Below the pieces are notes generated by a model. That model ran no database searches and had not been told where the DNA came from. It saw only the letters and a list, made by a program, of their open reading frames with translations. The position numbers and the translations under genes are program-made. From NCBI GenBank assembly GCA_943354385.1, contig CALRBR010000002.1, positions 4,208 through 68,207 on the forward strand: a stretch of DNA of 64,000 nucleotides, written 5' to 3'. Shown here one piece after another: positions 16,068-30,298 of the stretch; the first letter of the stretch is position 1, and every line of letters begins with the position of its first letter. This DNA is from Candidatus Tayloriibacteriota bacterium (lineage in GTDB: Bacteria > Patescibacteriota > Minisyncoccia > Phycocordibacterales > PALSA-1337).

Positions 16068-17336
16068 CTACCTCAGATCAAAACTCCACAGCGTCAGGTC
16101 AGCTTTGTTGATAAAGACCAGGAGGTCCTCCCTACCACTCAGCATGAGGTGGGTAATGTCGATATCTTGTCCGGAGAGATTTTTGAGGTCGGCTACCCAT
16201 TCAAATACTCCAGAGAGTGTATCTATTTTCCAAATCTCATCACTAAATAAAACCTTGCCTTGATACCAGGCGTCAGGGTATTTTCCGGCAGTGATTACGA
16301 GGGGTACCCCACAGTACAAGACGGTTTTTTCTTTTTTACTCCAAACACATTTTTCAGGCAAGGTGGTTAAGCCAGCGGGCTCCACCCTATTTTTCTTAGT
16401 GTCGTATACAAACAAAGCCAATCCATCTTCTGTGCTATTTGAAAATAAAACTTTAGAAGTGTCGGTGTTGGTGAGTGTGGTCAGGCCGTTTATTCCACCG
16501 AGAATTTTGGTGGTTGCATTAGTTAGTGTCGATACAAAATAAAGGAAGCCCGGACTATTTGAAAGCGCTTTGGTGGTAAAGGTCAAGGTATTTTCGGTAG
16601 GCCATTCAACAAGCCAGCTTTTGAGCGAAGAGTCGAAAATCTGCACCTTTTTTGAGCCGTCTGTTTTTGAAATAATTCCTACTACCCCGCCTGTAGTGTT
16701 TGAGGTGAGGTATGCCATACGGTCTTTTGCTGGAGATAGTACAAAGCCTTGAATATTTGAGCCTAGGAAACTCGGAGTGATTTTGCTCGAAAGAGATCCT
16801 TCGAGGGAAGTGCTAGAGGCCTGGAGTAGAGACGGACTGCTCATGGTTACCAAGAAGCTGTCTATGGTCTGGGCGTCGTCTTTTAGTTTTTGTACAATAA
16901 GAGCATTGTTTTTGTCTGTCCAAAACGCATCATAGATTTTTATCATTGGCGTGTTGGAAAGTTTGATGGCTTCAGTCCCCCCTACCTTGTTTTGATAGAT
17001 ATAACCTGTGCCTCGCTCAATATATCGAACTACAGTGCTACTACCACTGGTATATATGCCGGCACCAGCTACAGGGACAAGGGAGAGGTGTTGTAGGATC
17101 GGTCGGGTCGTTCCAGAAACAGGAGGCTTGTTGCCAGAACCCGTGCCTGTGGACGTGGTTCTATTCCCCCCACCAAATATGCCACTACCAAATGGAAATG
17201 GATTGCTGTCGCCATCCTCAACGGTATTTGTATCGACAATAGTAGAGGGTTTAATTGATAAAAAGAGGTACGCAATAGCTCCCCCAAAGAGGATGAGAAG
17301 AAAAGTGACTAAAATAATAAGGCTTTTTTTGGACAT
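16068..17336 (-). CDS. secreted beta-rich (propeller-like) protein, hypothetical
   Basis: 422 aa. N-terminal TM/signal anchor, Gly/Ser/Thr-rich linker, repeated beta-strand blocks. First gene of the co-oriented T4SS-like block. Confidence 0.5.
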   Translation of the reverse strand: MSKKSLIILVTFLLILFGGAIAYLFLSIKPSTIVDTNTVEDGDSNPFPFGSGIFGGGNRTTSTGTGSGNKPPVSGTTRPILQHLSLVPVAGAGIYTSGSSTVVRYIERGTGYIYQNKVGGTEAIKLSNTPMIKIYDAFWTDKNNALIVQKLKDDAQTIDSFLVTMSSPSLLQASSTSLEGSLSSKITPSFLGSNIQGFVLSPAKDRMAYLTSNTTGGVVGIISKTDGSKKVQIFDSSLKSWLVEWPTENTLTFTTKALSNSPGFLYFVSTLTNATTKILGGINGLTTLTNTDTSKVLFSNSTEDGLALFVYDTKKNRVEPAGLTTLPEKCVWSKKEKTVLYCGVPLVITAGKYPDAWYQGKVLFSDEIWKIDTLSGVFEWVADLKNLSGQDIDITHLMLSGREDLLVFINKADLTLWSFDLR

Positions 17337-17338
17337 GT

Positions 17339-18511
17339 CTATGGATTACTGCTAACTTGTGCGTTTGTTAACGCTCTTTCTCGGTCAAGTCCTTTTTGAT
17401 AGGCTTCGTCAATCTTTTTTATTCTTTCACTGGTGTATGCCCTTATCGCTTCTGCCTCAGCGGGGTATGTTTTTAAGAATTTATTATACACTTCGTTACT
17501 TCGTTTGCTGACATCTCTTTTGACATTCCTGATATTTTCCTCGAGCGCCTTTTGGTTGGTTGTTCCACCAGGAACATAAAATCTGGACGCGGCAGTAAGT
17601 GCTTTTTGAATGTCATACTCTTGATCAAGTTTTGTAAGGTCGATAGCTTTTTGGGTCTTGAGCAGGTCGATATTAGAGGTTATTTCCATTGCACCATCAG
17701 GTTCATCTGATTGTTCAATTTCTGATCGTTCTTTTTCTAACTTAAGAATTGCTTCGTTGTAGTTTCTTTCTGTGTTTCTTTTTCCACCGTCGATAATATT
17801 TTTAATTGTTTCCGCATCCTCTTTAGAGGTATCTTTTGAAAAAAACTGAAACACATCATTCTTTATACTTACACTTTCTGCCTTTGCAAGAACGCTGTCT
17901 CTTGCGACGTTGGTTTTACATTTTAACTTCGCGTTATTTGCGGCAACCTCATCTCCTGAGAGTCTTAAATCTTCTGCTTTTTTATTGCATTCGTCGAGCG
18001 CTGCTCTGACAGCGTCGAGCTTTCGATTATTTTCAAGGTATGGATCTACATACTGAATTCGCTTCGCCAATTCTTCTGTTTTTATAGGCTCCAATCCCCC
18101 GCTAAACTCTAGTAGCTGTGGGTTTATGGTATTTAAAATAAGGAAAGAGCCGAGGGCGAGGCCGAGTCCCCAGAGGGCACCCTCGATTTTTTCCTTTCCC
18201 TCGCTTTTTCCCCTGACAGCATCGGTACTCATATACTGGAATCCTCCCCAAATAATCATAAAGACTGCGAAGACACCCGCGAGACCGATACCAATCTTGA
18301 ACATTTCTTTGAGATATGTAGCGATATTTACGCTAGGCTTTGAAACACCACCCACCACCAGAGGCTCGAGGAGGCAGTATTCGTCTTTTGAAGATACACA
18401 CGGTGTTTTTTTCTCAGTAGCTGTTGAACCTGTTGTTTTGGAAACATCTACTTGTGCCTCTACATCTGTTGGAACAACAAAAAAAGCACTGATATAAAAC
18501 ATCACCATCGT
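17339..18511 (-). CDS. membrane protein with VirB2/TrbC-like double hydrophobic hairpin and long coiled-coil C-terminus
   Basis: Signal-like N-terminus, then two hydrophobic helices (IGIGLAGVFAVFMIIWGG / LWGLGLALGSFLIL) separated by a short charged loop, as in T4SS pilins, followed by ~250 aa of coiled coil. Start moved to M94: the upstream 93 codons of the track ORF are encoded by a MITE copy. Confidence 0.45.
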   Translation of the reverse strand, partial: TMVMFYISAFFVVPTDVEAQVDVSKTTGSTATEKKTPCVSSKDEYCLLEPLVVGGVSKPSVNIATYLKEMFKIGIGLAGVFAVFMIIWGGFQYMSTDAVRGKSEGKEKIEGALWGLGLALGSFLILNTINPQLLEFSGGLEPIKTEELAKRIQYVDPYLENNRKLDAVRAALDECNKKAEDLRLSGDEVAANNAKLKCKTNVARDSVLAKAESVSIKNDVFQFFSKDTSKEDAETIKNIIDGGKRNTERNYNEAILKLEKERSEIEQSDEPDGAMEITSNIDLLKTQKAIDLTKLDQEYDIQKALTAASRFYVPGGTTNQKALEENIRNVKRDVSKRSNEVYNKFLKTYPAEAEAIRAYTSERIKKIDEAYQKGLDRERALTNAQVSSNP

Positions 18512-18567
18512 AGCGAGTAGAGTGGATGCGAATACTTTTTTAAGAAAGAGGGTTTTAAGGTTGATAT

Positions 18568-18713
18568 TAATTCCTCCTTTTTTAAAGAAGGCCGTCCACA
18601 GGTGTCGATCACGAACGATCGACACGGCGAGTACTCGAAACGGAGGATTTTGAGCGATGAAAAAATCCCTCCTTCGCAGTAGCGAAGTGCTCCCTTTAGA
18701 AAAGGGAGAATAA
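18568..18713. repeat. family-1 MITE-like repeat
   Basis: Terminal inverted arms aattcctccttttttaaag ... ctttagaaaagggagaataatt. Internal hairpins gtcgatcacgaacgatcgac and ccttcgcagtagcgaagg (CAGTAG loop). Confidence 0.75.
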
Positions 18714-18796
18714 TTCCCGTACAGTCGACATAGAAAAGGGAGAATGGGGAGCGAGTCAGTAAAAAATTTTTTAAAAATAATGTTTTTCATCTTGTA

Positions 18797-19852
18797 TTAA
18801 AAGGCAACCTCTTTACTCTTGGCATCAAAAGATATTGAAAAGTCGTACCCTGCATTTTGGAGAATGTTCCTACTATTTTCTATTCCCACACTTACCCCCA
18901 CACTTCCAGCTTCGGCCTGACCACTCCTCCTTAGAGTGACACGATTTTTCTTTGCTACTCCACTGATATCAGCACCGTTCATGCTCCAGAGATAGTCAAG
19001 GTGTGTTACGGCCGGTGTTTTGCCTGAAAAATAGTATGGCACTGCCACAAAAGTCGCCTCGTCATTGGATAACGTAAATGTATCCAAAAGAGCTTTATTG
19101 TAAAGCACTCCATAGATAGGGTCATCCTGGTAGACCAAAATAGACGGTCTCTCTGGATCGAGCTCAAGATCGGCACTAGCACGAGTCCCGTCAGCCATAG
19201 ACGAAACCTCGACAGAAATCTCAGTCGCCTTTGGCAAGAGGGTTCCTAAAAAAGAAAAGCTGTCCTTACCATACCCTGAGTCACTTCCCTGCACCACTCC
19301 ATCCATACTCCACTTATATACGAGATTTTTAGCGCTCAATTTTTTGCCATTGACCCCCAGCAAATTTGGAATAGCGACCACGGTGACAAAGCCCTGATTG
19401 ACATAGGGTGACCGGCCTTTGTAAAAAGGCGGGGTGTAGCCACTGGTCTCCCAGACGAGGTCGACTTCTCCGGGACGGATGGGAATGTTTTTGCGAATCG
19501 TTCTACCCGAAACAGTAACGATGACAATATCGATAGATGAAGGGGTACCGAGAGACCCCGTGCGGAACTCAAACCGATTCAAACCAATCGCTTTTTGCAT
19601 TTGTTTACCATTTAAAAACCAGGCGATGGTAGCGCGGTCGAGATCGGTAGAATAATTTTTAACAGTAACACTGACGAGTGTATTTGGACCAGGGCGACTC
19701 GGTGACACTTCTATTTCCAAAGCATCGGGGATAGCGGTCATGAGCTGGGCGTGCAAAGGTGTAAGAGGAGTGCAAAACAAAACCCCAGCGAGTAAGGCAA
19801 ATCCAAAGATACAAAATTTTTGAGAAACGAAAGAATAGGAGTTTGACCGCAC
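18797..19852 (-). CDS. secreted hypothetical protein
   Basis: Signal peptide FVSQKFCIFGFALLAGVLFCTPLTPLHAQ. Start set at GTG 19852: no ATG precedes the signal peptide, and the upstream part of the track ORF is MITE-derived. Confidence 0.4.
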   Translation of the reverse strand: MRSNSYSFVSQKFCIFGFALLAGVLFCTPLTPLHAQLMTAIPDALEIEVSPSRPGPNTLVSVTVKNYSTDLDRATIAWFLNGKQMQKAIGLNRFEFRTGSLGTPSSIDIVIVTVSGRTIRKNIPIRPGEVDLVWETSGYTPPFYKGRSPYVNQGFVTVVAIPNLLGVNGKKLSAKNLVYKWSMDGVVQGSDSGYGKDSFSFLGTLLPKATEISVEVSSMADGTRASADLELDPERPSILVYQDDPIYGVLYNKALLDTFTLSNDEATFVAVPYYFSGKTPAVTHLDYLWSMNGADISGVAKKNRVTLRRSGQAEAGSVGVSVGIENSRNILQNAGYDFSISFDAKSKEVAF

Positions 19853-19853
19853 C

Positions 19854-19998
19854 AATTCCTCCTTTTTTAAAGTAGGCCGTCCACAAGTGTCGATCACAAA
19901 AGATCGACACGGCGAGTACTCCAGACGCAGGATTTTGAACGTTGAGAAAATCCCTCCTTCACAGTAGTGAAGTGCTCCCTTTAAAAAAGGGAGAATAA
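19854..19998. repeat. family-1 MITE-like repeat
   Basis: Same architecture. Hairpin ccttcacagtagtgaagg. Confidence 0.75.
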
Positions 19999-20042: not shown

Positions 20043-20549
20043 TCATACCCGTGGTCGGATGTCTTGCATCGATCTCTCGGGTGGCTGTGGAGAATTAATC
20101 GGCATGTTTGTATCTGGAGAAGATGTGTCATTTGGTAATGGAGGTGGACCAGATCTGGGGCTGTTTTGTGCTGGACCTTCTTGACCTTCTTGTCCTTTTG
20201 CATTGGCTTCAGCTACCATTTTACCTCCAGGGACTTTCGCTAGGGCCTCCTCCGCCTTGACGGTGCTCCAGGTAAAGAGTATATCCGCAGTCCACAGTGG
20301 GAGTGCATCTACACCTGGAATCATTTCACCCACAAAAGCGCCAAGCATTGCCAGCATTCTTTTTGGGTTCGCGAGTTTGACACCCTGGGTTCGCAAGAAG
20401 AGTGGAAGCCCGACCCCAATAGCGATGTCTATAAAACGATTAACCACAACCCCAATAGCAAAAAAATCAAGGACAATCTGTAGAATGTCTATTATTACAA
20501 ATAGACCAACGAGCAGTCTCCACCTAGTTTTAGTAAGTCTACAAGCCAT
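20043..20549 (-). CDS. small polytopic membrane protein with Pro-rich tail (pilin/VirB2-like candidate)
   Basis: 168 aa. Two to three TM helices followed by a disordered P/Q/G-rich C-terminus. Confidence 0.4.
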   Translation of the reverse strand: MACRLTKTRWRLLVGLFVIIDILQIVLDFFAIGVVVNRFIDIAIGVGLPLFLRTQGVKLANPKRMLAMLGAFVGEMIPGVDALPLWTADILFTWSTVKAEEALAKVPGGKMVAEANAKGQEGQEGPAQNSPRSGPPPLPNDTSSPDTNMPINSPQPPERSMQDIRPRV

Positions 20550-20724: not shown

Positions 20725-20728
20725 CCCA

Positions 20729-22537
20729 CTACTGGTTCGCCAGCTCGTCTTTTGCTCGCTTTATAGCGAGGACCTGCTCGGGGTTGGTGGTGATGATCTG
20801 GTCCTCGGTGTATGAAGCGATCACCTTGATAGCCACATGTTTGAGGCCGACAAAGAAGATCCCCTCTCCAATATCCGACTCGAGCAGGAGATACTTCTCC
20901 TCGTCGGTAAGGTTGAAGGTTTTTTGAAGTATATCCATCGAAGACGGCGACTGCTTGAGCAATATCTGAATAGAAGAGTTGGTAATAATCGGCAATCCGT
21001 AAGGAGATTTTAGAAAGTCGTCCACGTCTTGAGTAATAGTCGCAAGGCCGAGATAGTATTTTCGTCCTCGTTTTGCGAGCCCAAGCAAGAACGATGCGGT
21101 GTCATCGGATTTCATCATCCACCATGCCTCGTCGATGACGAGTAGACGCTTTTTGAGATTCTTGCGGATAGCGTTCCAAATATAGTGGGTGACAATGTAC
21201 ATGGCTACCGGCTTGAGCTCGTCTTCCATGTCGCGGAGAGAAAAGACCACGAATTTTTTATTGATATCTACATTTGAAGGTCGATTGATAAAGCCCGACC
21301 AAGTACCTTTTGTATATTTACTGAGCTTTTGTACCAGCGACTCCCCTCCTTCCATGCCCGCAAGCACGAGCTCAAAGTCAGAGAGAAGTGGTGGCTCAAC
21401 ACTTTTAAAATCAGACTCGGCGGTGATATCTTTGAGTGCGTATGTCTCGGTAATAGCTCGGTCGATGATCGCGTCCTCCTCCTGAGTCAGTCCCCCCATC
21501 ATGATACGGAAAAGGCCCACGAGATTGACAATGTTTGAGCGGAGTACATCCGAGGCCGACTCGTCTTCTCGAGGTATTGGAAGGTCAAAGGGATTTATAT
21601 GGTGTTCTGAAGTAAGTGAAATATTGAAATATCTACCACCCACTGCTTCAGACATGTACTCGTATTCTTTTTCTGGGTCGATGACGATAACTTCAGTTTC
21701 AAACATTAGTGTTCGGAGTATTTCCAGCTTTACGGCGTAGGACTTACCAGAACCGGCTTTGGCAAAGGTTACTGAGTTGTAGTTTTCTAGCAGGAAGCGG
21801 TCAAAAAGAACGAGGCTGGAGTTGTGACGGTTGATACCATATAGAATACCTTTGTCAGAGGTGAGGTCAAATGAGACGAATGGAAAAAGACTTGAAAGTG
21901 GTGAGGAGTTGAGCTTTGAGTGCACATTGAGCTCATCGGTAGCAATAGGTAAAATACTTTTGTACCCTTGCTCCTGCTGGAAAAGGGCGGGCTTGAGGTA
22001 GACGAGCTTTGATTCCAGTACTGATTTTATCTCGGACTCTGTTTTGTCGAGCTCCCCTGCACTATCTCCATATATAGTAATGTATACACCGACGTCAAAA
22101 AGTTTCTCCTGGGCCTGCTGGAGATTGTCGCGAAGCTGTTCGAGATCACGATAAGCGGTGTCGAGCATCGGATCGCGCACGAGACCTTTTTCTTCTCGTA
22201 CATTGATCTGGCTTTGTACCTCGGCTACCTTTTTCTGAAATGTTCGGAGAGCTTTGGCGGTATCTACCGGGTGAATGAAAATAGAAATATTAAAAACTTT
22301 GTCGAGGTTTATGATTGGTGCAAACCAGCTATCGGAAAGAAAGCGAGGGTATGAGATCACGAAAAAAGTGCGGGCAATTTTCTCTCCTAGATTGAGTTCT
22401 TTTGGACTGACTTTCAGCGCAGATGGAGCAATAATGTCTTTTAGCTCGAGTATGCCAGCCTCATATATTTGCTGTGGCAAAATAGATGCGATGGGCACCT
22501 CTTTTTTACTTCCAAATAAATTAGAAAATATTCCCAT
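20729..22537 (-). CDS. VirB4/TrbE/CagE-family type IV secretion ATPase (C-terminal ATPase region)
   Basis: 602 aa. Walker A FAKAGSGKSYAV, Walker B LLVIDEAWWMM, conserved VirB4 motifs (VIDPEKEY, ATQ). Lacks the usual N-terminal ~200 aa. Confidence 0.8.
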   Translation of the reverse strand: MGIFSNLFGSKKEVPIASILPQQIYEAGILELKDIIAPSALKVSPKELNLGEKIARTFFVISYPRFLSDSWFAPIINLDKVFNISIFIHPVDTAKALRTFQKKVAEVQSQINVREEKGLVRDPMLDTAYRDLEQLRDNLQQAQEKLFDVGVYITIYGDSAGELDKTESEIKSVLESKLVYLKPALFQQEQGYKSILPIATDELNVHSKLNSSPLSSLFPFVSFDLTSDKGILYGINRHNSSLVLFDRFLLENYNSVTFAKAGSGKSYAVKLEILRTLMFETEVIVIDPEKEYEYMSEAVGGRYFNISLTSEHHINPFDLPIPREDESASDVLRSNIVNLVGLFRIMMGGLTQEEDAIIDRAITETYALKDITAESDFKSVEPPLLSDFELVLAGMEGGESLVQKLSKYTKGTWSGFINRPSNVDINKKFVVFSLRDMEDELKPVAMYIVTHYIWNAIRKNLKKRLLVIDEAWWMMKSDDTASFLLGLAKRGRKYYLGLATITQDVDDFLKSPYGLPIITNSSIQILLKQSPSSMDILQKTFNLTDEEKYLLLESDIGEGIFFVGLKHVAIKVIASYTEDQIITTNPEQVLAIKRAKDELANQ

Positions 22538-22750: not shown

Positions 22751-23398
22751 CTACGTCAACTGTATTGGCTTTTCCATATCTCCTGGATTGAAAATGCGGT
22801 AGTAGAGCTCGATAATTTCTTCGGTACCGAGCTGTACCACGCGAACACCAGATCTGACGAGTCCCTGCTCTACCACACTCATTCTTTGCTCTAGCTGACT
22901 GCGGTGTTCCTCAAAATCCTCTATTTTCTGCTTACCAGCATCTTCGGATACAGAAGGTTTTTTTCCTAGAAGCTTGCCCATGAAGTTATCTTTTGTTTGC
23001 AGGAGCGGTGGTGAGTATGGGATAACAACAAAAAAGCTTTTGGTCATGATGCTCGAGTTGTCGGTAAAGTTTTTGATAAATTCGATATATTCTCGCGTCT
23101 GAATTTTCATCAAGTCCCCCATTTGTTCCTTGTATCTGTTTTCGAGGAGTGCAATATAGGGTCTGATGTCTAGGCGTTTTGATTGTACAAATATTTGTAT
23201 AGAAAAATCTAGGGAGTTTAATAAATTTTGAAACTGATAGATGATGGAGTTTTGCTCGTCGGTCGATTTGAGAGCGAAGTTTAGAGATGAAGCCATGAGT
23301 ATTCCACGCATACCACCGTCTTTGAGAATGACCACGCCATTTTTGACCTCTTTGATCGGAACAAAATCTTGAGTTGTTTTTGAGCTTGCAGTCGCCAT
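22751..23398 (-). CDS. hypothetical protein, candidate detached N-terminal domain of VirB4
   Basis: 215-aa ORF immediately upstream of the VirB4 ATPase, separated from it by a MITE copy. Combined length (817 aa) matches full-length VirB4. Confidence 0.4.
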   Translation of the reverse strand: MATASSKTTQDFVPIKEVKNGVVILKDGGMRGILMASSLNFALKSTDEQNSIIYQFQNLLNSLDFSIQIFVQSKRLDIRPYIALLENRYKEQMGDLMKIQTREYIEFIKNFTDNSSIMTKSFFVVIPYSPPLLQTKDNFMGKLLGKKPSVSEDAGKQKIEDFEEHRSQLEQRMSVVEQGLVRSGVRVVQLGTEEIIELYYRIFNPGDMEKPIQLT

Positions 23399-23620: not shown

Positions 23621-24061
23621 CTACCTCTGTCTCTTATCCGAATATACACTGTTGTTTATATCCAAACTCCAAGTAAGATCCTTGAGCTTACTGTCGGAAA
23701 GCTTTGGTACAGAAAGCATTGGAATGTCCTCCGTCGATTCGTCGGGGACACCACTTACTACTGGCCGATCATGTTTTTTCCAAATATATAATTTTTCATT
23801 TACCACATATTTGAACGCAGATTCTACCAGAGCAGAAAAAGGCATCGGGCTCGGATTGTAGGGTTTATAAAAGGCTAGAGCTCCTGCAAAAGCGAGGATA
23901 GGTAGGATCAGGATAAGACTAATATAGATAGGCACAGGCAGAAACTGGTACACCATAAAAGACATTCCTAGTCCCCCACCCATATATACAAACTGTTTAA
24001 AGGTCAGCTGGCCAAATATCTTGTCTTCTATTTCTATAAATTGTGGGACTTGGAAGCGCAT
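23621..24061 (-). CDS. VirB3/PrgI-like small membrane protein
   Basis: 146 aa. N-terminal QF.EIEDKIFG..T..QF motif followed by two TM helices. Positioned directly upstream of virB4-like genes, as VirB3 usually is. Confidence 0.4.
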   Translation of the reverse strand: MRFQVPQFIEIEDKIFGQLTFKQFVYMGGGLGMSFMVYQFLPVPIYISLILILPILAFAGALAFYKPYNPSPMPFSALVESAFKYVVNEKLYIWKKHDRPVVSGVPDESTEDIPMLSVPKLSDSKLKDLTWSLDINNSVYSDKRQR

Positions 24062-24105: not shown

Positions 24106-24160
24106 TTATTCCTCCTTTCCTAAAGGAGCTGGCTCGTAATCGAGACGGAGGATTTAATCT
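24106..24160. repeat. family-1 repeat, left half, flanking DUF559 gene
   Basis: ttattcctcctttcctaaaggagctggctcgtaatcgagacggaggattt. Overlaps the last codons of the DUF559 ORF. Confidence 0.6.
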
Positions 24161-24482
24161 CTCGCACGACACTCTCTATATTATACCTCACATCCGCATC
24201 ACTAAACCTAAGGAATCGGATACCTTTTAATTCTAACATATTCTGTCGAATAATGTCCGCTTCGACTTTACTATCATGACTCACCCCATCTATCTCTATA
24301 GCTAGGTTTAAAGTGTGGCAGTAAAAATCAACGATATATTTATTAACAGGTCTTTGTCGTAAAAATTGATATCCAAGTTTTTTCTTTTTTAACTCTTTCC
24401 ATAATAATACTTCTGCAAGATTGCCTGATTTGCGTAGGTTTTTTGCAAGAGGCTTGAGATTTTTATGATAGATGAGCTTCAT
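24120..24482 (-). CDS. DUF559 (Vsr/PD-(D/E)xK-like) endonuclease-domain protein
   Basis: 120 aa. Characteristic ...YIVDFY...LAIEIDG..H.... pattern. Last ~12 codons are encoded by a MITE arm. Gene is nested between two halves of a MITE copy. Confidence 0.7.
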   Translation of the reverse strand: MKLIYHKNLKPLAKNLRKSGNLAEVLLWKELKKKKLGYQFLRQRPVNKYIVDFYCHTLNLAIEIDGVSHDSKVEADIIRQNMLELKGIRFLRFSDADVRYNIESVVREIKSSVSITSQLL

Positions 24483-24638: not shown

Positions 24639-25490
24639 CTAAAAAGTCTCTCGGTAAGGATCTGCTTTATACGGTGCTTGAGGCGCAGAAGGCTTTTGGG
24701 AGATGACTGTGGTGGCCGTGACGACTACTCCACTGAGCTTGGCGCTGACGATGTTGTTGGCTGGGGCGGCGGGTGTTTTGGGAGCAGGTTGAGTTTGAGG
24801 AGGTGTGGGGTAGGAGTGATTGTTTTGCGGGACGATCGCTGGCAGATCATTGTCGTTATGTGCCACAGGGAGATTTGATGGAGCGGGAGAGGTTTTGGCT
24901 ACAGCAGGTGAAGCCACGGTATTATTCCTAGCAGGGATAGTCCTTGCTAGGGTTATGGGAGCTGGGTCCTCGATGTCGTTTTTAGCAAGGACCGTCCTTG
25001 CTAAGGTTGTTGGAGCCGGATCCTCGATGTCGCGGAGGATATCTTCCCTCTTTAGAGTCGCGTGATGCTCGTCGGTCTCGACGGGATGCTCGCTGTCAGG
25101 GGCGAGATTGGAGGTTTTATCGTCTGATAACGTTGTGTTTGTCGTGCCAGCTCCCTCTTCCTCAAGAAGTGGTGCTTGTTCGGCGAGCTTTTTCAATGAT
25201 TCTCTAATGGCTAAGAAAATCTCATTATTTACATCTCTGGCAATCATTTCGGCTACACCCTGAGATACTTCGAGCTTTTTTCTAATACTTGTGACAAAAT
25301 TATTGGGATGAGTGAGTCCGAGCATAACCATATCTGTAGTGGCGTACAAAGCACCAATTTTGTCGACGTGCAAGGAATGTTTTTCACCTATTTTGTTTAT
25401 TTTTGATCCCAGATTAGAATATTCTATCGCCCGCTGTATCTCGGGAGGTAAGGAAGCTATTATTTCTTGTCGAGTTTTTTGTTGAGACAT
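24639..25490 (-). CDS. hypothetical protein with disordered Pro/Ala/Thr-rich C-terminus
   Basis: 283 aa. Structured N-terminal ~110 aa, then low-complexity repeats (EDPAPTTLARTVLAKN twice). 3' end abuts a MITE. Confidence 0.45.
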   Translation of the reverse strand: MSQQKTRQEIIASLPPEIQRAIEYSNLGSKINKIGEKHSLHVDKIGALYATTDMVMLGLTHPNNFVTSIRKKLEVSQGVAEMIARDVNNEIFLAIRESLKKLAEQAPLLEEEGAGTTNTTLSDDKTSNLAPDSEHPVETDEHHATLKREDILRDIEDPAPTTLARTVLAKNDIEDPAPITLARTIPARNNTVASPAVAKTSPAPSNLPVAHNDNDLPAIVPQNNHSYPTPPQTQPAPKTPAAPANNIVSAKLSGVVVTATTVISQKPSAPQAPYKADPYRETF

Positions 25491-25527: not shown

Positions 25528-27624
25528 TTATACACGCCAGCGATCCGTTTTTCCTATCGGATCACTGATGTAATTAAAGGCGGGATGGGTAGGAATTTGA
25601 CCCATTATTTTATTTCCAATATCTATCTTTATAGATTCATCAAGATCATTAGTTAATTCCTTTAATTTGCCAATTTTTAATTCTTTAATAAAATCTGGAT
25701 TGTTGACGATCGCGGCTCTGCTGGGACCTTCAATTATTTCTATAAGGTCTTTTGCGGGCAAGGAAGCAAGCATTTTTTTAATCTTAGCGGAATCATTCGA
25801 GATTAGGGCATCATTTCTCTGCTTAGACATCTCGGCTTTAATAGCAATTTTGGTCGGTTGTTCAATGCTACTACCCAGTAACTTTTTAAGCCTGTCTGGG
25901 TTTTCAGAAATTGCTTCTACGAATTTTGTACTAGACAGTACTGCGGGATCAAGATTTTCAATCTCGCTATCACTGAGCTTGTCTAATTCTTTGGTAACAT
26001 CTGTTCCTGCTGTGGCCCCATCTTTTATGTTTTTTAGACGTGCGGTTCTAAGCTCCGCTTTCCTTTCTTCAGGAAGCTCACTCTTTTCAGACATATGTTC
26101 TGCCTGACCTTTATTGAGATGTGGCATAAGTTTCTCTAATTGTTCTTTTTTTAACCCAAGTGATTCTATTTGCTTACCAGACATATTTTTAACCTCATTG
26201 AGCATCGCTAGGTGTTCTGGGCTAGTAACACTCGCACCTATACCACTTACTATAGTAGCTCTTTTCTTTATGGAATCTTGCTTGGTCGCATTTTCCTTAT
26301 CTCTATCCCCTTGATCCTTGAAAGATCTTTCCCCTCCAAATTTATTTTTTGCCAAAGCACCTATGCTACTTTCACGTAAAGATCTACCGAGGCCTGTGTT
26401 TCCAATCCAGGTGTTTCCCGCTAGTTTATCTAGGTTAGAACCAGCCCATCCAAGGGTATTTCTCGCTGCCCAGCTACCCCCAAGTCTCGGCAATGCCAAG
26501 CCAACATTCTTTGCCCACCCTTCAAATGTAGCCGCTCCCTTCACCCCAAACTCCTTTGCAATAATGAGTGATGCCATGAGGAAGATGATGATGACGCAGT
26601 AGTTGAAGATCACAGCAATAGACCCTCCACCAGTCAAGGCCGAGATGGATCCATTGCCGGGATTGACCGCCGCCTGAAAGCCAGGAGAAGCCACGATCTT
26701 GATTCCCACATAGGTGACCGCGAGATAGACAGGCATAAAGAGGCATTGGTCCATAAGGGCAGACCACCATTTGTCAGCTTGAGCTTTCGCTTTACCACCG
26801 AGGGCTTGCCCCGCAAAGGCAATCGGCGAGGTAACCATGAGTAGGAGGAGTATGACGATACGCACCATAAAGAAGAAGGCGGCAGCCAGGAAGACGATGG
26901 AGGCAATGAGCATGACGATGGAACCCATGATGGTATTGATAAGAAGTCGAACGAAGGGTGGTGCTTCAGCACTCGATGCCGAGCCAGCGAGCTTGTCGTT
27001 TTTAAGGCCTGGTTTTAACCCGGATGGATCATAGGTGGTCTGGATGTAGAGGCTGTCCATGAAAATGGCGGAAAGGCCGGTTCTCTTAAGCCCAAATACT
27101 TTACTAGTACTTAAGTCTCCATCAGGATTCGGTACCAATGCTTTATAAAAACCCAGAGACACCACGTTAGACGCGTCGATCACCAGCTTAGTAAAGAAAA
27201 GACTGAAATTTATAAGAAGACCTGCGATGACAACAGTCATGAGTACCTTCTTGGCATTTTCTTTGCCCCCGCCGACGCCCAGGATGGTGGTGATGGCGGT
27301 GTACAGAAGGATAAAGATAAAAAACATGGTACAGAGATCACGGAAGACTTTCCAACCGGTCTCGATGGCAGGAATTTTTTCGACCAGACTGGCGATATTG
27401 AGAGTCCAGTTGAGCGAGTAGTCGAGGAGCAGTCCAGAGATGTAGATAAAGAAGGACATGGCCTGGAGGACCATGTTTCCCATAAATTGGGCAATACTTT
27501 CGATCGGGCTATCGGCAAATTTTAATATTGCTAATGCTTGTGCGTGTGCTTCATGTACCCCAAAAACCCCGGTCCATCCGAGGATAAGTGCAACTATGAA
27601 AATGTGAGGAAGATATTTTTTCAT
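25528..27624 (-). CDS. VirB6/TrbL-like polytopic inner-membrane protein
   Basis: 698 aa. Signal peptide, at least eight TM helices with Gly-rich loops, ~250-aa hydrophilic C-terminal domain. Architecture matches T4SS VirB6/TrbL. Confidence 0.55.
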   Translation of the reverse strand: MKKYLPHIFIVALILGWTGVFGVHEAHAQALAILKFADSPIESIAQFMGNMVLQAMSFFIYISGLLLDYSLNWTLNIASLVEKIPAIETGWKVFRDLCTMFFIFILLYTAITTILGVGGGKENAKKVLMTVVIAGLLINFSLFFTKLVIDASNVVSLGFYKALVPNPDGDLSTSKVFGLKRTGLSAIFMDSLYIQTTYDPSGLKPGLKNDKLAGSASSAEAPPFVRLLINTIMGSIVMLIASIVFLAAAFFFMVRIVILLLLMVTSPIAFAGQALGGKAKAQADKWWSALMDQCLFMPVYLAVTYVGIKIVASPGFQAAVNPGNGSISALTGGGSIAVIFNYCVIIIFLMASLIIAKEFGVKGAATFEGWAKNVGLALPRLGGSWAARNTLGWAGSNLDKLAGNTWIGNTGLGRSLRESSIGALAKNKFGGERSFKDQGDRDKENATKQDSIKKRATIVSGIGASVTSPEHLAMLNEVKNMSGKQIESLGLKKEQLEKLMPHLNKGQAEHMSEKSELPEERKAELRTARLKNIKDGATAGTDVTKELDKLSDSEIENLDPAVLSSTKFVEAISENPDRLKKLLGSSIEQPTKIAIKAEMSKQRNDALISNDSAKIKKMLASLPAKDLIEIIEGPSRAAIVNNPDFIKELKIGKLKELTNDLDESIKIDIGNKIMGQIPTHPAFNYISDPIGKTDRWRV

Positions 27625-27627: not shown

Positions 27628-29301
27628 TTAATTTGGTCGTAAGGGCGAGGTGTTTGGAAAAGATGCACACTCTGTGAGTTTGCGAGACGTCTCGACATTT
27701 AATGTATCCATTGTAGCAGAGATGGCGGTTTTTTGTTGCTTGGCTTCCCCAATATCTAGCTCATTATAGATTTTACCGGGGCCGTCGTTGGTAGCCATAG
27801 TTTGATATTCGGTGGTTGCCGCCAGAGTGTCCTGGAGCGATTCTGTAGCACTTATTTTTGTTTTAAGTTGTTGTAATTTTCTAAGGACATTATCGGCTGA
27901 GCTGATGTCGTTCGCGATATCTGATTTTGGTTTATCTATATCTGTTTGTATTTTAGTGCGAGCATTGGCTGATCGAATAGTAGCCTCTGCAATATCAGAA
28001 CTTGAAAGAGGTGGTGTCTGAGGGGTAGTGATTTTATTGGTATAGCACGATGCTAGCTGATTGAGTTTGCTTTCGGCACCGGTGAAGGCGCTAAGAGTGC
28101 TTTCTTTTTCAGTTTTAAATTTGCCGACAGTAAGGATTGACTTTTCGACACCTTGCTTGCCCTTTGCGTCAATATTTTTAAGGGTATCCGTATCCTGAGC
28201 TGCACCGAGCTTGTCGAGATATGATGAGCCATCGTATTGGGTATCATTGGCACCTTTGAGGCCACTTCCCCCACCAACCACCTGGTTTACCAGCTGGGCA
28301 AAAAGGGCGTTCACTATTTCATTGAACTCATCGGCAAGACCGAGACCATCGATACTACTACCGAGCACTTTGCCGAGCTGGCCTTCGATGACAGAGCCAG
28401 GGGTGTTGATTTTACAGCCAGTTTGCTCTTCCATTTTAAGCATGTGCTTGTAACCAGCGGCAGCTTCTTTGTCGTAATTATCGCTGTTTTTGTCCCCTGT
28501 TTCTGCCAGCTGGCTACGGTATTCTGCTGCATTTTCAGAGTTTTTACCGGTGCAATCACTTTTAAATGAGAGAAACCCTCGGCCTTGGCCGAGCTCGTCT
28601 TTGCCGAGAACTTGTTTTTGGTTGATGCGTAAAGAAAGCTCGTTTTGAGCCATCAGTGTGGCACCGTAGACATTGTTTTGGGGCTGAGTAGTGAGAGAAA
28701 GCCAGCTGTTCCAGCCACCATTTTTGAAATTGCCTTTGGTAAAGCTTCGACCGTTTATACTAGCGCCGTCGATTGCACCGCCTACATTTTTGACGATATC
28801 TGTGAAAGTACAGGTAACTCTTTTCTTGAAAGGCGAATATTGAAAGGCCAGGGCGATACGAAGATCGATATTAAACTCTTTACAGAGAAAATTGAGGTCA
28901 GAAGAACCCTCGATAAATTTACCAATCTCTTCACTTGCGATGTTGGTAAAAAAGCCTGCAGGGTCGGTGACAAAGGACGGGCTACCCTCAAAGCCAGTGT
29001 TGATCCACTTGACCACGCTGGTGGTGATCTGCCGGAGAATGGCTTTGACGATATATGTGACCAGACCGTCGAGGACGAACTCTTTGTACTGGACGGCGTA
29101 CGTAGCAATATTGGATCCGATAGCGCCCAATGCGGTAACGGGAGCAGATACCGCAGTAACTGTGTTCTGGACCGTGTTGGCGACATCGGCCGTAAGAAGT
29201 TGGGCACTCGCTTTCTGAGATTGTATAAAAAAAGTCGATGAAAAAACAAAAGTGAAGATAAGTGCTGCTGATATGATTTTGTGAAAGATGTTCCCAATCA
29301 T
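27628..29301 (-). CDS. large secreted protein, hypothetical
   Basis: Start at M20 (MIGNIFHKIISAALIFTFVF...ASAQ signal), 1 nt after the upstream gene's stop. Gly/Asn/Ser-rich with several Cys. Confidence 0.5.
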   Translation of the reverse strand: MIGNIFHKIISAALIFTFVFSSTFFIQSQKASAQLLTADVANTVQNTVTAVSAPVTALGAIGSNIATYAVQYKEFVLDGLVTYIVKAILRQITTSVVKWINTGFEGSPSFVTDPAGFFTNIASEEIGKFIEGSSDLNFLCKEFNIDLRIALAFQYSPFKKRVTCTFTDIVKNVGGAIDGASINGRSFTKGNFKNGGWNSWLSLTTQPQNNVYGATLMAQNELSLRINQKQVLGKDELGQGRGFLSFKSDCTGKNSENAAEYRSQLAETGDKNSDNYDKEAAAGYKHMLKMEEQTGCKINTPGSVIEGQLGKVLGSSIDGLGLADEFNEIVNALFAQLVNQVVGGGSGLKGANDTQYDGSSYLDKLGAAQDTDTLKNIDAKGKQGVEKSILTVGKFKTEKESTLSAFTGAESKLNQLASCYTNKITTPQTPPLSSSDIAEATIRSANARTKIQTDIDKPKSDIANDISSADNVLRKLQQLKTKISATESLQDTLAATTEYQTMATNDGPGKIYNELDIGEAKQQKTAISATMDTLNVETSRKLTECASFPNTSPLRPN

Positions 29302-29302
29302 A

Positions 29303-30298
29303 TTATTTGGTATTGCTAAAAAGATACCCCTGTTCCCCTTCGGTAAAGACCATCCCATTTTCTTTGAAGTAGGTGCTGACCCTCTGGAGGGAGGTAATCA
29401 TATTGCCACGAACCTCGGGGAAACGCCCAGCAGCCTGGAGGGTGGAAAGCGGATCTGTATGAATTCGGCTCATGCCTTGCACGACACTAAGTATATCACT
29501 AAAACTGTTCACTAGGGCGAGGTGGATAAGTGAGGCGCTCACAGGGACTTTGGTTTTGAGGAAATTGGTCAGCAGGCTCTGGTACGCCTTGATGATAGGG
29601 TCGAGCTCTTTGATAGATTCAGGGTCTTCTTCCTTGACACTGTCACGAAGAATAATCCCCTCATCTCTGGCGGAAATCGAGTAGGTTTTAATAATCTGAC
29701 CGAGCTCATTACCGTATGCTCGGATAGTTTCTGGCGAGCTATCTTTGGCGATCTCAAGGTCAGTCCGAGCGTATTCTACGTTTGTTAAAATAGTATCACT
29801 TTTGTCGAGTAGATTGAGGACGATTTCTTTTTGCTCGGCAGTGGTCAAAGGAGTCCCTCCGTTGGCCTGCTTGGTGGTCATGTATTGGGTAAAGACATCT
29901 CGGGCAAATTTGTCGGTCGCGGTCAGGGGCTCGCTTTTTGTACCGTCTTGATTTTGGGCAAAGGGATGGTTTGCGATTTTGTCATTTGGGCCTTTGACGG
30001 TCGGGTTGCGTTCGAGCTCGACTTCTTTGCCATCTGATGTGCCATCGCCATCGGTATCGGCCTTTTGTGGATCAGTGTGCCAGAGCACCTCTTCCCAGTC
30101 TTTTAGACCGTCTTTGTCAGTGTCCTTCTCTGCGACGAGGTCGATATTTTGCTCTTCGATACTGACGGCTTGGATGCCTGTCGAGGTTATTGGTTTGGAA
30201 GAATCTTTTTGAGATTTAGTAGCCACGAAAAATATCCCGAATGCAACAATTCCGGTGGTGATAATAATCATTACCCCTTTTCTGGTAGGTAGTTTCAA
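29303..30298 (-). CDS. membrane-anchored protein with acidic DxDxDG (calcium-binding-like) repeats
   Basis: 331 aa. N-terminal TM, DTDKDGLKDWEE / DTDGDGTSDGKE motifs resembling thrombospondin-type-3/EF-like Ca sites. Confidence 0.45.
   Translation of the reverse strand: MKLPTRKGVMIIITTGIVAFGIFFVATKSQKDSSKPITSTGIQAVSIEEQNIDLVAEKDTDKDGLKDWEEVLWHTDPQKADTDGDGTSDGKEVELERNPTVKGPNDKIANHPFAQNQDGTKSEPLTATDKFARDVFTQYMTTKQANGGTPLTTAEQKEIVLNLLDKSDTILTNVEYARTDLEIAKDSSPETIRAYGNELGQIIKTYSISARDEGIILRDSVKEEDPESIKELDPIIKAYQSLLTNFLKTKVPVSASLIHLALVNSFSDILSVVQGMSRIHTDPLSTLQAAGRFPEVRGNMITSLQRVSTYFKENGMVFTEGEQGYLFSNTK

What the first reader, a model, noticed from the sequence alone, without database searches (positions are those of the whole stretch)
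16068..30298. Chromosomal T4SS-like gene block (VirB4, VirB6-like, VirB3-like, VirB2-like) with no relaxase or coupling protein, between yidC and ksgA
Ten co-oriented minus-strand genes run from 16068 to 30298, several with 1-4-nt intergenic gaps. They encode a VirB4-family ATPase with clear Walker A/B motifs (20729-22537) and a possible detached VirB4 N-terminal domain (22751-23398). They also encode a two-TM PrgI/VirB3-like protein (23621-24061) and a ~700-aa signal-peptide polytopic protein with VirB6/TrbL architecture (25528-27624). Two further proteins have the signal peptide plus double hydrophobic hairpin typical of T4SS pilins (17339-18511, 20043-20549). Five secreted or membrane-anchored proteins of unknown function complete the block, including a beta-propeller-like one and one with DxDxDG Ca-type repeats. 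No relaxase, VirD4/TraG coupling ATPase, or plasmid/ICE integration and replication genes are present. The block sits in core chromosome next to the origin. That argues for a dedicated secretion, DNA-uptake or host-contact apparatus rather than a conjugative element, as expected for an episymbiotic small-genome bacterium. Every intergenic space in the block carries a MITE-like repeat. The unknown secreted proteins are candidate novel structural components or substrates.
Basis: partly seen in the sequence, partly recalled or inferred. Interest (0 to 1): 0.8.

Follow-up and report, generated by a model that had tools for sequence, protein, structure and literature searches.

The report
Patescibacterial chromosomal type IV secretion operon
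This is a real type IV secretion gene cluster without conjugation genes, fixed next to the replication origin of a tiny Paceibacteria-type bacterium; the same system was already described for this group in 2023-2025, so this copy is one more example and not a discovery.

Summary
The block is real. Eleven conserved minus-strand genes, plus one lineage-specific DUF559 endonuclease gene, lie between yidC and ksgA next to dnaA/dnaN.

Tests here confirm four parts:
- a VirB4 ATPase, which passes the curated NCBIfam cut-off for the CD1110 family;
- a detached VirB4 N-terminal domain (TrsD-like);
- a PrgI/VirB3 protein;
- one VirB2-like pilin with a long C-terminal extension.

The VirB6 call has only weak support.

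Gene order from ksgA to dnaA (mostly on to dnaN) is the same in 36 of the 38 long related loci from Paceibacteria genome bins. VirB4 is more conserved there than DnaA (83% against 62% median identity). I found no relaxase, coupling protein or integrase near the block, and no relaxase or coupling protein anywhere in the 64 kb.

The intergenic repeats are a genome-wide element of this lineage and are not specific to the secretion system.

All the main points are already published (Wang 2023; Quinonero-Coronel 2025; a 2025 FEMS review). Small additions from this work are a three-Ig-domain anchored protein, a TrbJ/TraI-like N-terminal motif in the 557-aa protein, and pilin-hydrolase fusions in relatives. 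The function of the system is still unresolved.

The parts
16068..17336 (-). 422-aa protein with an N-terminal membrane anchor, a Gly-rich linker and a beta-rich ectodomain, possibly a TolB-type beta-propeller. Last gene of the block.
   Evidence: One hydrophobic segment at residues 6-24. A homologue was detected in 59 of 80 related loci, always at this position. An ortholog profile gives only sub-significant PDB matches, 12 of 14 of them to TolB, with a best E-value of 0.057. Pfam gives Beta-prop_RIG_2nd at 0.052. The fold was not modelled.
17339..18790 (-). VirB2-like pilin (T4SS_pilin domain: signal peptide, YxLLxPLP motif, two hydrophobic helices) followed by a coiled-coil-like C-terminal extension of about 260 aa. 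The start is uncertain: ATG 18508, or ATG 18790 reading through an in-frame repeat.
   Evidence: The window copy matches PF18895 at E 6.4e-4, 20.2 bits, below the 26.6-bit cut-off. Of 31 syntenic orthologs, 29 match it, several above the cut-off at 33-37 bits. NCBIfam gives 'Mbov_0395 family pilin-like conjugal transfer protein' at 3e-4. The alignment shows a conserved pilin core and hypervariable tails. Start codons are listed.
18797..19855 (-). Protein of about 350 aa with an N-terminal transmembrane helix and three tandem Ig-like/FnIII-like beta-sandwich domains. It is a candidate stalk, spacer or adhesin part of the apparatus and is not VirB8-like.
   Evidence: The AlphaFold2 model has mean pLDDT 90.2 and pTM 0.77, with one helix and then all-beta structure. 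Foldseek against the PDB finds phage Hoc, Sidekick Ig1-4, the SbsB S-layer protein and the SiiE adhesin at E 6e-9 to 1e-7. A homologue is present in 76 of 80 loci. Orthologs are about 330-350 aa. The start is GTG 19852 or TTG 19855 behind AAGGAGG.
20043..20549 (-). Small 168-aa conserved integral membrane protein, with two to three hydrophobic segments, no signal peptide and a Pro-rich tail.
   Evidence: Hydropathy. The ortholog alignment has conserved D21, P84 and W86. hhalign against the pilin profile gives probability 0.7%. No Pfam or NCBIfam match. tblastn detects it in 25 of 80 loci, always directly downstream of virB4.
20729..22537 (-). VirB4-family ATPase lacking the first ~185 residues of a full-length VirB4. 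It is the motor of the system.
   Evidence: NCBIfam conju_CD1110 at 2.1e-114, 383.4 bits (cut-off 325), covering profile positions 185-733 of 752. Pfam P-loop_TraG at 1.9e-26 and AAA_10. The best plasmid matches are Firmicutes and Actinobacteria VirB4 proteins of the CD1110 family at 27-35% identity. Identity to 80 Patescibacteria genome bins is 80-89%. Walker A and B motifs were read.
22751..23398 (-). Detached N-terminal domain of VirB4 (TrsD/TraD-like). Together with 20729-22537 it makes up a split VirB4 of 215 + 602 aa.
   Evidence: NCBIfam matches only the N-terminal positions of VirB4 models: VirB4_plasma 2.8e-11 (100-233 of 894), TrsD 3.4e-7, conju_CD1110 2e-4 (2-117 of 752) and VirB4_CagE 2.6e-4 (5-168 of 792). 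hhalign of the ortholog profile against the 797-aa VirB4 of C. botulinum pCDC3875 aligns residues 22-198 at E 2.9e-5. The window VirB4 picks up at about residue 206 of that protein. A precomputed Pfam TraC-like hit is on record. Present in 79 of 80 loci at 64% median identity.
23621..24061 (-). PrgI-family (VirB3-like) small membrane protein, the presumed membrane tether for VirB4.
   Evidence: Pfam PrgI at 1.3e-9, 38.9 bits (cut-off 27). Present in 79 of 80 loci at 52% identity. The PrgI-x-VirB4 order matches pCDC3875.
24120..24482 (-). DUF559 (Vsr-like) endonuclease gene. It is a lineage-specific insertion inside the operon and not part of the secretion system.
   Evidence: Pfam DUF559 at 8.3e-28. 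Only 1 of 80 related loci has a match, at a different position. It is flanked by repeat copies at 24097-24165 and 24549-24645.
24639..25490 (-). 283-aa soluble, presumably cytoplasmic, protein with a conserved N-terminal ~100 aa, a Pro-rich middle and a conserved C-terminal DPYRE motif. Its role is unknown.
   Evidence: No hydrophobic segment. No Pfam, NCBIfam or PDB match. Detected in 45 of 80 loci between the VirB6-like gene and prgI. Conserved columns are listed.
25528..27624 (-). 698-aa polytopic membrane protein with a signal peptide, at least five further hydrophobic segments in the first 360 aa and a hydrophilic tail of about 340 aa. It is the probable 'extended' VirB6/TrbL-like channel subunit.
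   Evidence: Hydropathy. The window copy has no Pfam hit, but 4 of 31 syntenic orthologs match Pfam TrbL with a best E-value of 6e-5. hhalign against A. tumefaciens VirB6 and against CD1112 aligns the same short motif without significance. Its position upstream of prgI matches pCDC3875. Present in 60 of 80 loci.
27628..29301 (-). 557-aa secreted protein with a signal peptide, a V-x-D-x-x-N-x-x-Q-N motif just after it, a Cys-containing conserved middle region and a confident C-terminal long-helix bundle. It is a speculative VirB5/TrbJ/TraI-like minor pilus or tip component.
   Evidence: Several homologues match Pfam DUF4141 at residues ~20-60 with 25-30 bits, at or just below the 30-bit cut-off. 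The AlphaFold2 model has mean pLDDT 70, above 90 for residues ~370-550 as a helical bundle and poor in the N-terminal half. Foldseek against the PDB finds nothing specific. hhalign against VirB5 is not significant. Present in 56 of 80 loci. The start is ATG 29301.
29303..30298 (-). Protein of 322-331 aa with an N-terminal membrane anchor, calcium-binding TSP3 repeats and a conserved C-terminal domain of unknown fold. First gene of the block.
   Evidence: Pfam TSP3_bac at 1.8e-9. Hydrophobic segment at residues 8-26. Present in 49 of 80 loci at this position. No PDB match. The alternative start is ATG 30271.
18569..18713 (.). One copy of the modular hairpin repeat (MITE/REP-like). Other copies in or beside the block are at 19854-19998, 20571-20724, 22626-22742, 23447-23591, 24097-24165, 24549-24645, 30417-30448 and 30683-30834. 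This is a genome-wide element and not a part of the secretion system.
   Evidence: Repeat families D1-D4 and D7-D9, with further copies at 14967-15116, 35570-35666, 54037-54102, 58594-58728 and 60006-60087. The copy at 20565-20730 folds at -68 kcal/mol with z = -6.85. The core motifs are absent from 80 related loci. No Rfam match.

Best explanation
**What it is.** This is the chromosomal, relaxase-less type IV secretion system typical of Patescibacteria, in its Paceibacteria gene arrangement. It descends from the conjugation machinery of single-membrane bacteria (the MPF-FATA class) and has been turned into a core, vertically inherited host-interaction organelle.

**Likely working.** Parts are shown by homology; the assembly and function are inferred.
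1. A split VirB4 ATPase (22751-23398 plus 20729-22537) forms the cytoplasmic motor.
2. The PrgI/VirB3 protein tethers the motor to the membrane, beside the polytopic VirB6-like protein (25528-27624), which forms the membrane channel and pilus-assembly platform.
3. The Sec-inserted VirB2-like pilin (17339-18790) is pulled from the membrane and polymerised into a tube or fibre.
4. The pilin's long variable C-terminal tail would decorate the outside of that fibre.
5. Four co-conserved anchored or secreted proteins would build the wall-spanning and host-contacting parts: the TSP3 calcium-binding protein, the 557-aa helical protein, the three-Ig-domain protein and the propeller-like protein.

**Function.** The apparatus most likely moves macromolecules between the epibiont and its host cell, either exporting effectors or importing host material. 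It does not carry out conjugation. The direction and the substrate are not known.
For: **Identity of the parts**
- VirB4 passes the curated NCBIfam cut-off for the CD1110 family.
- The VirB4 N-terminal domain is a separate gene that aligns collinearly with a full-length VirB4.
- PrgI is above the Pfam cut-off.
- The pilin family is established through 29 of 31 orthologs.
- Four of 31 orthologs of the polytopic protein match TrbL.
- The order VirB6-PrgI-x-VirB4 is the same as in a Clostridium conjugative-type plasmid cluster.

**Core, non-mobile status**
- Gene order from ksgA to dnaA (mostly on to dnaN) is the same in 36 of 38 long loci from many Paceibacteria lineages.
- VirB4 is 83% identical across them, against 62% for DnaA.
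- The 64 kb hold no relaxase and no VirD4, and no integrase gene lies near the block.
- The minimum of cumulative GC skew lies at dnaA.

**Envelope parts**
- The three-Ig-domain model is confident.
- Hydropathy was computed; TSP3 repeats were found.

**Literature**
- PMC12102498 describes this clade, including TrsD, PrgI, VirB6 and VirB2-like pilins, the missing relaxase, and the dnaA/dnaN/rnpA/ksgA neighbourhood in Paceibacteria.
- PMC10633639 shows by Tn-seq that the homologous cluster and its pilins are essential for epibiotic growth of Southlakia.
- PMC12857230 reviews the system as possibly pilus-forming.
- bioRxiv 10.64898/2026.06.21.733656 reports tubular structures at the parasite-host interface together with uptake of host RNA.
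Against: - No experiment exists for this organism or for any Paceibacteria. Essentiality is shown only in a Saccharimonadia species.
- The window's own VirB6-like and pilin copies fall below the family cut-offs; the assignment rests on orthology.
- No VirB8-like or VirB1-like protein was identified in the block. The one candidate modelled as a possible VirB8 turned out to be Ig-like.
- The roles of six conserved genes are inferred from fold class or topology only.
- Absence of a coupling protein is shown only for 64 kb of a larger genome.
- Whether a pilus forms, and the direction and substrate of transport, are all unknown.
Confidence: 0.85

Rival explanations
1. The block is a decayed integrative conjugative element: a once-mobile island that lost its relaxase, coupling protein and integrase and is now drifting.
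For: The closest non-Patescibacteria relatives of VirB4, and the same local gene order, are found on conjugative-type plasmids of Firmicutes. A mobile-looking DUF559 gene and many repeats lie inside the block.
Against: The cluster occupies the same core position in all 38 long related loci. VirB4 is more conserved than DnaA, and all eleven genes keep open reading frames. The window shows no GC anomaly. The DUF559 gene and the repeats are late, lineage-specific additions that are absent from relatives.
Confidence: 0.03
2. It is a DNA-uptake (competence) machine, like ComB of Helicobacter or the archaeal Ced system, importing DNA for nucleotides or recombination.
For: VirB4 gives a weak match to the CedB DNA-import model, 4.2e-9 but 36 bits against a cut-off of 700. 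Relaxase-less systems include DNA importers. In another class, ABY1, PMC12102498 notes T4SS loci near comF, recG and radA. These bacteria cannot make nucleotides.
Against: In Southlakia, deleting comEC abolished transformation without affecting viability, while the T4SS stayed essential (PMC10633639, as summarised in PMC12857230). Essentiality is therefore not explained by ComEC-dependent DNA uptake. No competence genes lie in this block. The best family match is the conjugative CD1110 type, not CedB.
Confidence: 0.1
3. The ATPase belongs to a non-T4SS family (FtsK/HerA-type), and the neighbouring genes form an unrelated envelope operon.
For: Pfam also reports the DUF87/HerA central domain at 4.2e-7 for the ATPase. 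Six neighbours have no family assignment.
Against: The full-length match to the VirB4 CD1110 model passes its curated cut-off. A PrgI gene, a VirB4 N-domain gene and a T4SS_pilin gene flank the ATPase. The DUF87 hit covers only the shared P-loop region, residues 258-320.
Confidence: 0.01

Closest known systems
Patescibacteria-clade T4SS (Quinonero-Coronel et al. 2025, PMC12102498; Southlakia epibionticum SEML1_0006-0019, Wang et al. 2023, PMC10633639)
   Same: Both have VirB4 with an adjacent TrsD-like N-domain gene, PrgI/VirB3, a VirB6-like protein and a VirB2-like pilin near virB4. Both lack a relaxase nearby and sit on the chromosome. The dnaA, dnaN, rnpA and ksgA neighbourhood is reported for Paceibacteria. 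VirB4 here is 80-89% identical to 80 Patescibacteria genome bins.
   Different: This locus has a single pilin gene with a 260-aa tail, whereas Southlakia has an array of six short pilins. No peptidase or lysozyme genes lie directly downstream of virB4. Six co-conserved genes were left unannotated in the published survey. This copy also carries a DUF559 insertion and a repeat invasion.
MPF-FATA conjugative T4SS of Firmicutes (CTn2/CD1110 type, e.g. C. botulinum pCDC3875; pGO1/pSK41 TrsC-TrsD-TrsE)
   Same: VirB4 is of the CD1110 family. The order VirB6-PrgI-x-VirB4 matches. A separate TrsD-type gene lies upstream of the ATPase, as in the pGO1 subclass (PMC12102498). Both lack outer-membrane core parts.
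   Different: Those systems carry VirD4, a relaxase and an SLT/CHAP wall hydrolase, lack VirB2-like pilins, and sit on mobile elements. Identity to the window VirB4 is only 27-35%.
Mycoplasma ICE transfer genes (Mbov_0395 pilin-like protein, Mbov_0397 VirB4)
   Same: Both are single-membrane systems that combine a VirB4 with a pilin-like small membrane protein. The window pilin and both VirB4 parts give their next-best or best NCBIfam matches to these models.
   Different: All these matches fall far below the curated cut-offs. The Mycoplasma genes sit on mobile elements with their own DNA-processing genes.
Agrobacterium VirB/VirD4 system (MPF-T archetype)
   Same: Functional counterparts of VirB2, VirB3, VirB4 and probably VirB6 are present here.
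   Different: This locus has no VirB7, B9, B10 or B11. No VirB1, VirB8 or VirD4 was recognised in the window. Profile comparisons with VirB2, VirB5 and VirB6 of pTiC58 were not significant.

Membership tests
Type IV secretion system (any class) | VirB4-family ATPase with Walker A and B motifs | tested here: met
   NCBIfam conju_CD1110 at 383 bits against a cut-off of 325. Pfam P-loop_TraG at 1.9e-26. Motifs read.
Type IV secretion system (any class) | VirB3/PrgI-type small membrane partner of VirB4 | tested here: met
   Pfam PrgI at 38.9 bits against a cut-off of 27.
Type IV secretion system (any class) | VirB6/TrbL-type polytopic channel protein | tested here: inconclusive
   The topology fits, and 4 of 31 orthologs match Pfam TrbL with a best E-value of 6e-5. 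The window copy has no hit, and the hhalign comparisons are not significant.
Type IV secretion system (any class) | VirB8-like (NTF2-fold) bitopic protein | tested here: inconclusive
   The best candidate by size and topology (18797-19855) is made of three Ig-like domains, not an NTF2 fold. The other anchored proteins (16068, 29303) were not modelled. No Pfam or NCBIfam hit.
Type IV secretion system (any class) | VirB1-like cell-wall hydrolase | tested here: not met
   No gene in the block matches one. An M23/LysM peptidase lies outside the block at 34422-35504. Pilin orthologs in some relatives carry NlpC/P60, CHAP or M15 domains.
Patescibacteria-clade T4SS (PMC12102498) | VirB4 belongs to the monophyletic Patescibacteria clade | tested here: inconclusive
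   No tree was built. Identity of 80-89% to VirB4 of 80 Patescibacteria genome bins, against at most 35% to any plasmid VirB4, makes membership very likely.
Patescibacteria-clade T4SS (PMC12102498) | TrsD-like VirB4 N-domain gene next to virB4 | tested here: met
Patescibacteria-clade T4SS (PMC12102498) | VirB2-like pilin gene near virB4 | tested here: met
   The window copy scores 20.2 bits, below the cut-off. Of 31 syntenic orthologs, 29 match T4SS_pilin, several above the cut-off.
Patescibacteria-clade T4SS (PMC12102498) | Chromosomal, with no relaxase nearby; in Paceibacteria next to dnaA, dnaN, rnpA and ksgA | tested here: met
Conjugative element (ICE or plasmid transfer region) | Relaxase | tested here: not met
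   No relaxase family matched any ORF scanned across the 64 kb. The rest of the genome was not available.
Conjugative element (ICE or plasmid transfer region) | Type IV coupling protein (VirD4 or TcpA) | tested here: not met
   No Pfam hit. tblastn with a CD1115 VirD4 finds only the VirB4 P-loop at E 0.14. This covers the window only.
Conjugative element (ICE or plasmid transfer region) | Variable insertion site with integrase or replication genes | tested here: not met
   The position is the same in all 38 long loci. The only integrase-family gene in the window (44308-45267) is 14 kb away, among housekeeping genes.

The most novel reading that the evidence does not exclude
The six unannotated co-conserved genes could be the missing envelope-spanning and host-contacting parts of a pilus-bearing, single-membrane T4SS.

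- The pilin would carry a variable C-terminal 'payload' on the outside of the fibre. In some relatives that payload is a cell-wall hydrolase that cuts into the host wall.
- The 557-aa protein would be a VirB5/TrbJ-like tip.
- The whole machine would work as an import conduit for host macromolecules such as RNA, not as an exporter.
Probability: 0.12. Interest if true: 0.7.

Novelty: already known. Interest (0 to 1): 0.3.

Why it matters
The Patescibacteria T4SS is one of the few molecular leads on how a very large group of ultrasmall, host-dependent bacteria live. It is essential in the one species tested, and what it transports is unknown.

This locus adds no new principle. It is a clean example from the Paceibacteria, with a fixed set of eleven conserved genes. 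The work here gives a refined parts list that could guide structural and genetic studies once a Paceibacteria species can be grown and manipulated:
- a split VirB4;
- a single long-tailed pilin;
- a three-Ig-domain anchored protein;
- a protein with a TrbJ/TraI-like N-terminal motif;
- a small three-segment membrane protein.

Tried and rejected
1. **PDB sequence searches.** Profile searches of PDB sequences with the VirB4 N-domain, VirB6-like, 557-aa, propeller-like, TSP3 and 283-aa families gave no significant match.
2. **557-aa protein as VirB5.** The AlphaFold2 model was confident only in a generic helical bundle, and Foldseek found nothing specific. hhalign against A. tumefaciens VirB5 aligned only the signal-peptide junction. 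The VirB5-like idea therefore rests on sub-threshold DUF4141 hits alone.
3. **18797 gene as VirB8/TcpC.** I tested it as a TcpC/VirB8-like protein with two NTF2 domains. This is rejected: it consists of three Ig-like domains.
4. **20043-20549 as a second pilin.** Rejected.
5. **Single-sequence profile comparisons.** hhalign of the VirB6-like profile against the CD1112 protein and A. tumefaciens VirB6, and of the pilin profile against VirB2, was suggestive in register but not significant.
6. **Apparent gene fusion.** An apparent fusion of the TSP3 gene with the 557-aa gene in some relatives was an artefact of my ORF-extension script. Translation of L001 shows a stop codon between them.
7. **Extending the contig.** I tried to extend beyond the window along the 98.7-kb source contig to look for VirD4. 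The look-ups returned nothing or only a short contig.
8. **Other searches.** RK2 (BN000925) was not in the plasmid collection. Rfam found nothing in 10-36 kb. The promoter and terminator scans were uninformative, about 1.5-2 sd above the shuffled controls with no site I could interpret.

Full report
**1. What is in the sequence**

The window is core chromosome around the replication origin. It holds dnaN (11383-12483, -), dnaA (12740-14197, -), rnpA (14630-14971, +) and yidC (15154-15894, +). A run of minus-strand ORFs follows from 16068 to 30298, then ksgA (30501-31448, -) and a UvrD-type helicase gene (31784-33742, +). Cumulative GC skew reaches its minimum at 10-14 kb, beside dnaA. The rest of the window encodes housekeeping functions such as RuvABC, TyrRS, a class A PBP, AsnB, MurI, ClpP, trigger factor and RNase Y, plus a type IV pilus-type ATPase at 106-1779.

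The block has 12 ORFs, not 10. Two of the long ORFs (17339-18790 and 18797-20203) are extended at their 5' ends by translated repeat sequence.

**2. Recognisable T4SS parts**

- **VirB4 (20729-22537).** It matches the NCBIfam model "VirB4-like conjugal transfer ATPase, CD1110 family" at 2.1e-114 and 383 bits, above the curated 325-bit cut-off. The match covers only profile positions 185-733 of 752. Pfam gives P-loop_TraG and AAA_10.
- **Detached VirB4 N-domain (22751-23398).** This upstream gene matches only the N-terminal positions of several VirB4 models and the TrsD/TraD model. Its ortholog profile aligns to residues 22-198 of a full-length 797-aa clostridial VirB4 at E 2.9e-5. The window VirB4 takes over at about residue 206 of that protein.
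- **PrgI/VirB3 (23621-24061).** It is above the Pfam cut-off.
- **Pilin (17339-18790).** The window copy matches T4SS_pilin only at 20 bits. However, 29 of 31 syntenic orthologs match, several above the cut-off. The alignment shows the typical signal peptide, the YxLLxPLP motif and two hydrophobic helices, followed by a hypervariable tail.
- **VirB6-like protein (25528-27624).** It has the "extended VirB6" topology, and 4 of 31 orthologs match Pfam TrbL with a best E-value of 6e-5. Direct comparisons with VirB6 of pTiC58 and with a CD1112 protein are not significant. I rate the VirB6 call as probable but not proven.

The local order VirB6-x-PrgI-x-VirB4 is the same as in C. botulinum plasmid pCDC3875. 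That plasmid additionally carries VirD4 and an SLT hydrolase.

**3.

- 20043-20549 is not a pilin. It has no signal peptide and has two to three hydrophobic segments with conserved D21, P84 and W86. Its similarity to the pilin profile is nil, with hhalign probability 0.7%.
- 24639-25490 has no signal peptide and no hydrophobic segment.
It is found in only one other related locus, at a different place, so it is a recent insertion.

**4. The unknown proteins**

- **18797-19855.** The model is confident (pLDDT 90) and shows a transmembrane helix followed by three Ig-like/FnIII-like domains. The nearest structures are surface and adhesin-type proteins such as Hoc, SbsB and SiiE. This rules it out as a VirB8/TcpC-like protein.
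- **27628-29301.** This 557-aa protein has a V-x-D-x-x-N-x-x-Q-N motif straight after its signal peptide. In several homologues the motif matches Pfam DUF4141 at 25-30 bits, at or just below the 30-bit cut-off. To my recollection DUF4141 marks the N-terminus of Bacteroides TraI and resembles the start of TrbJ/VirB5-type proteins, but I could not check this here. The C-terminal third is a confident long-helix bundle with no specific structural match. A minor-pilin or tip role is only a hypothesis.
- **16068-17336.** It gives sub-significant matches, but consistently to the same fold, the TolB beta-propeller.
- **29303-30298.** It has TSP3 calcium-binding repeats.

**5. Conservation and context**

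A scan of one genome per species found 586 stretches encoding relatives of VirB4. The best 80 are all from Patescibacteria/Paceibacteria genome bins, with names such as Taylorbacteria, Zambryskibacteria, Nomurabacteria, Campbellbacteria and Wolfebacteria, and are 80-89% identical.

In 36 of the 38 loci of at least 21 kb, the genes detected between ksgA and dnaA (mostly continuing to dnaN, and with uvrD upstream of ksgA where the locus reaches it) follow one order. The two exceptions are L048, where the best match for the 18797 gene lies elsewhere, and L043, where prgI appears inverted. The order is:

ksgA, TSP3 protein, 557-aa protein, VirB6-like, (283-aa protein), PrgI, VirB4 N-domain, VirB4, (168-aa protein), Ig protein, pilin, propeller-like protein, yidC, (rnpA), dnaA, dnaN.

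| Protein | Median identity |
|---|---|
| VirB4 | 83% |
| VirB4 N-domain | 64% |
| DnaA | 62% |
| PrgI | 52% |
| Envelope proteins | about 28-41% |

This pattern fits a vertically inherited, strongly selected cytoplasmic motor with fast-evolving surface parts. It argues against a decaying mobile element.

No relaxase or VirD4 family was found in any ORF scanned across the window. I could not examine the rest of the genome.

**6. The repeats**

The hairpin repeats are real, modular and strongly folding, with z = -6.85 for the copy at 20565-20730. They also occur outside the block at 14967, 35570, 54037, 58594 and 60006, and one copy lies inside ksgA. Their core motifs are missing from all 80 related loci. 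They represent a lineage-specific invasion of intergenic DNA and are not a feature of the T4SS.

**7. Comparison with what is known**

Every main point of the finding is already published.

- Quinonero-Coronel et al. 2025 (PMC12102498) surveyed 3,035 Patescibacteria genomes. They describe a monophyletic VirB4 clade nested in MPF-FATA. TrsD is its most frequent companion, along with PrgI/VirB3, VirB6 and VirB2-like pilins. A relaxase is almost always missing, and VirD4 homologues usually lie far from virB4. For Paceibacteria and Microgenomatia they report a neighbourhood rich in dnaA, dnaN, rnpA, ksgA and rpmH.
- Wang et al. 2023 (PMC10633639) showed by Tn-seq that the homologous cluster and its pilin genes are essential for epibiotic growth of Southlakia.
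- The 2025 FEMS review (PMC12857230) presents these systems as the first essential T4SS and as possibly pilus-forming.
- A 2026 preprint (10.64898/2026.06.21.733656) reports tubular structures at the contact site and uptake of host RNA in a cultivated member of the group.

**8. Verdict**

The system is already known, so interest is modest.

The most likely mechanism is a split-VirB4-driven, PrgI- and VirB6-based membrane platform that assembles a VirB2-like fibre and moves macromolecules between epibiont and host. Homology shows the identity of the parts. The assembly, the direction of transport and the substrate are inferred.

Noticed in passing
window 30683-30834 (inside ksgA, 30501-31448): A copy of the hairpin repeat sits in frame inside ksgA and adds 51 amino acids (about residues 201-251). 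All 47 ksgA matches in related loci lack this stretch, and the reading frame stays open.
   Followed up: yes
window 14967-15116, 18569-18713, 19854-19998, 20571-20724, 22626-22742, 23447-23591, 24097-24165, 24549-24645, 30417-30448, 35570-35666, 54037-54102, 58594-58728, 60006-60087: A modular family of hairpin repeats with ~50-nt modules fills intergenic spaces across the window. It folds strongly (z = -6.85), has no Rfam match, and its core motifs are absent from 80 related loci. A module at 19856-19870 supplies an AAGGAGG just upstream of the likely start of the Ig-domain gene.
   Followed up: partly
window 10920-11012, 14352-14444, 44145-44238, 48772-48863, 53926-54020, 59908-60002: A second, unrelated repeat family of about 90 nt occurs in both orientations. 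One copy lies between dnaA and rnpA, where the origin would be expected.
   Followed up: no
window 31784-33742: The uvrD-type helicase gene is inverted relative to ksgA when compared with the related loci that contain it, where it is co-oriented with ksgA. The M23 peptidase gene beyond it keeps its usual orientation, so this looks like a single-gene inversion.
   Followed up: partly
L030:13757-14836, L043:12922-13767 (orthologs of window 17339-18790): In some relatives the pilin domain is fused to a cell-wall hydrolase domain: NlpC/P60 above the Pfam cut-off plus CHAP in L030, and Peptidase_M15_4 weakly in L043. Several other orthologs have a C-terminal HWH or PHFS motif that may be a zinc peptidase. 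The window copy has a coiled-coil-like tail instead.
   Followed up: partly
window 16068-30298 relative to dnaA (12740-14197): If the origin lies between dnaA and rnpA, as the gene order and GC skew suggest, the whole 14-kb operon is transcribed head-on to the replication fork. The related loci have the same arrangement.
   Followed up: no
window 20729-22537 versus 12740-14197: Across the related genome bins VirB4 is more conserved than DnaA or DnaN: 83% median identity against 62% and 53%.
   Followed up: yes
window 24120-24482: A DUF559 (Vsr-like) endonuclease gene is inserted between prgI and the 283-aa gene and is flanked by repeat copies. It is absent at this position from all related loci.
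   Followed up: partly
window 106-1779: A T2SSE/PilB-type ATPase gene (Pfam T2SSE, 3.2e-112) lies 14 kb from the T4SS block. It presumably belongs to the type IV pilus system that these bacteria also depend on.
   Followed up: no
window 60176-61354: This ORF encodes a Kelch-repeat beta-propeller protein, next to a D-Ala-D-Ala carboxypeptidase gene (61330-62301). That is unusual content for a small-genome bacterium.
   Followed up: no
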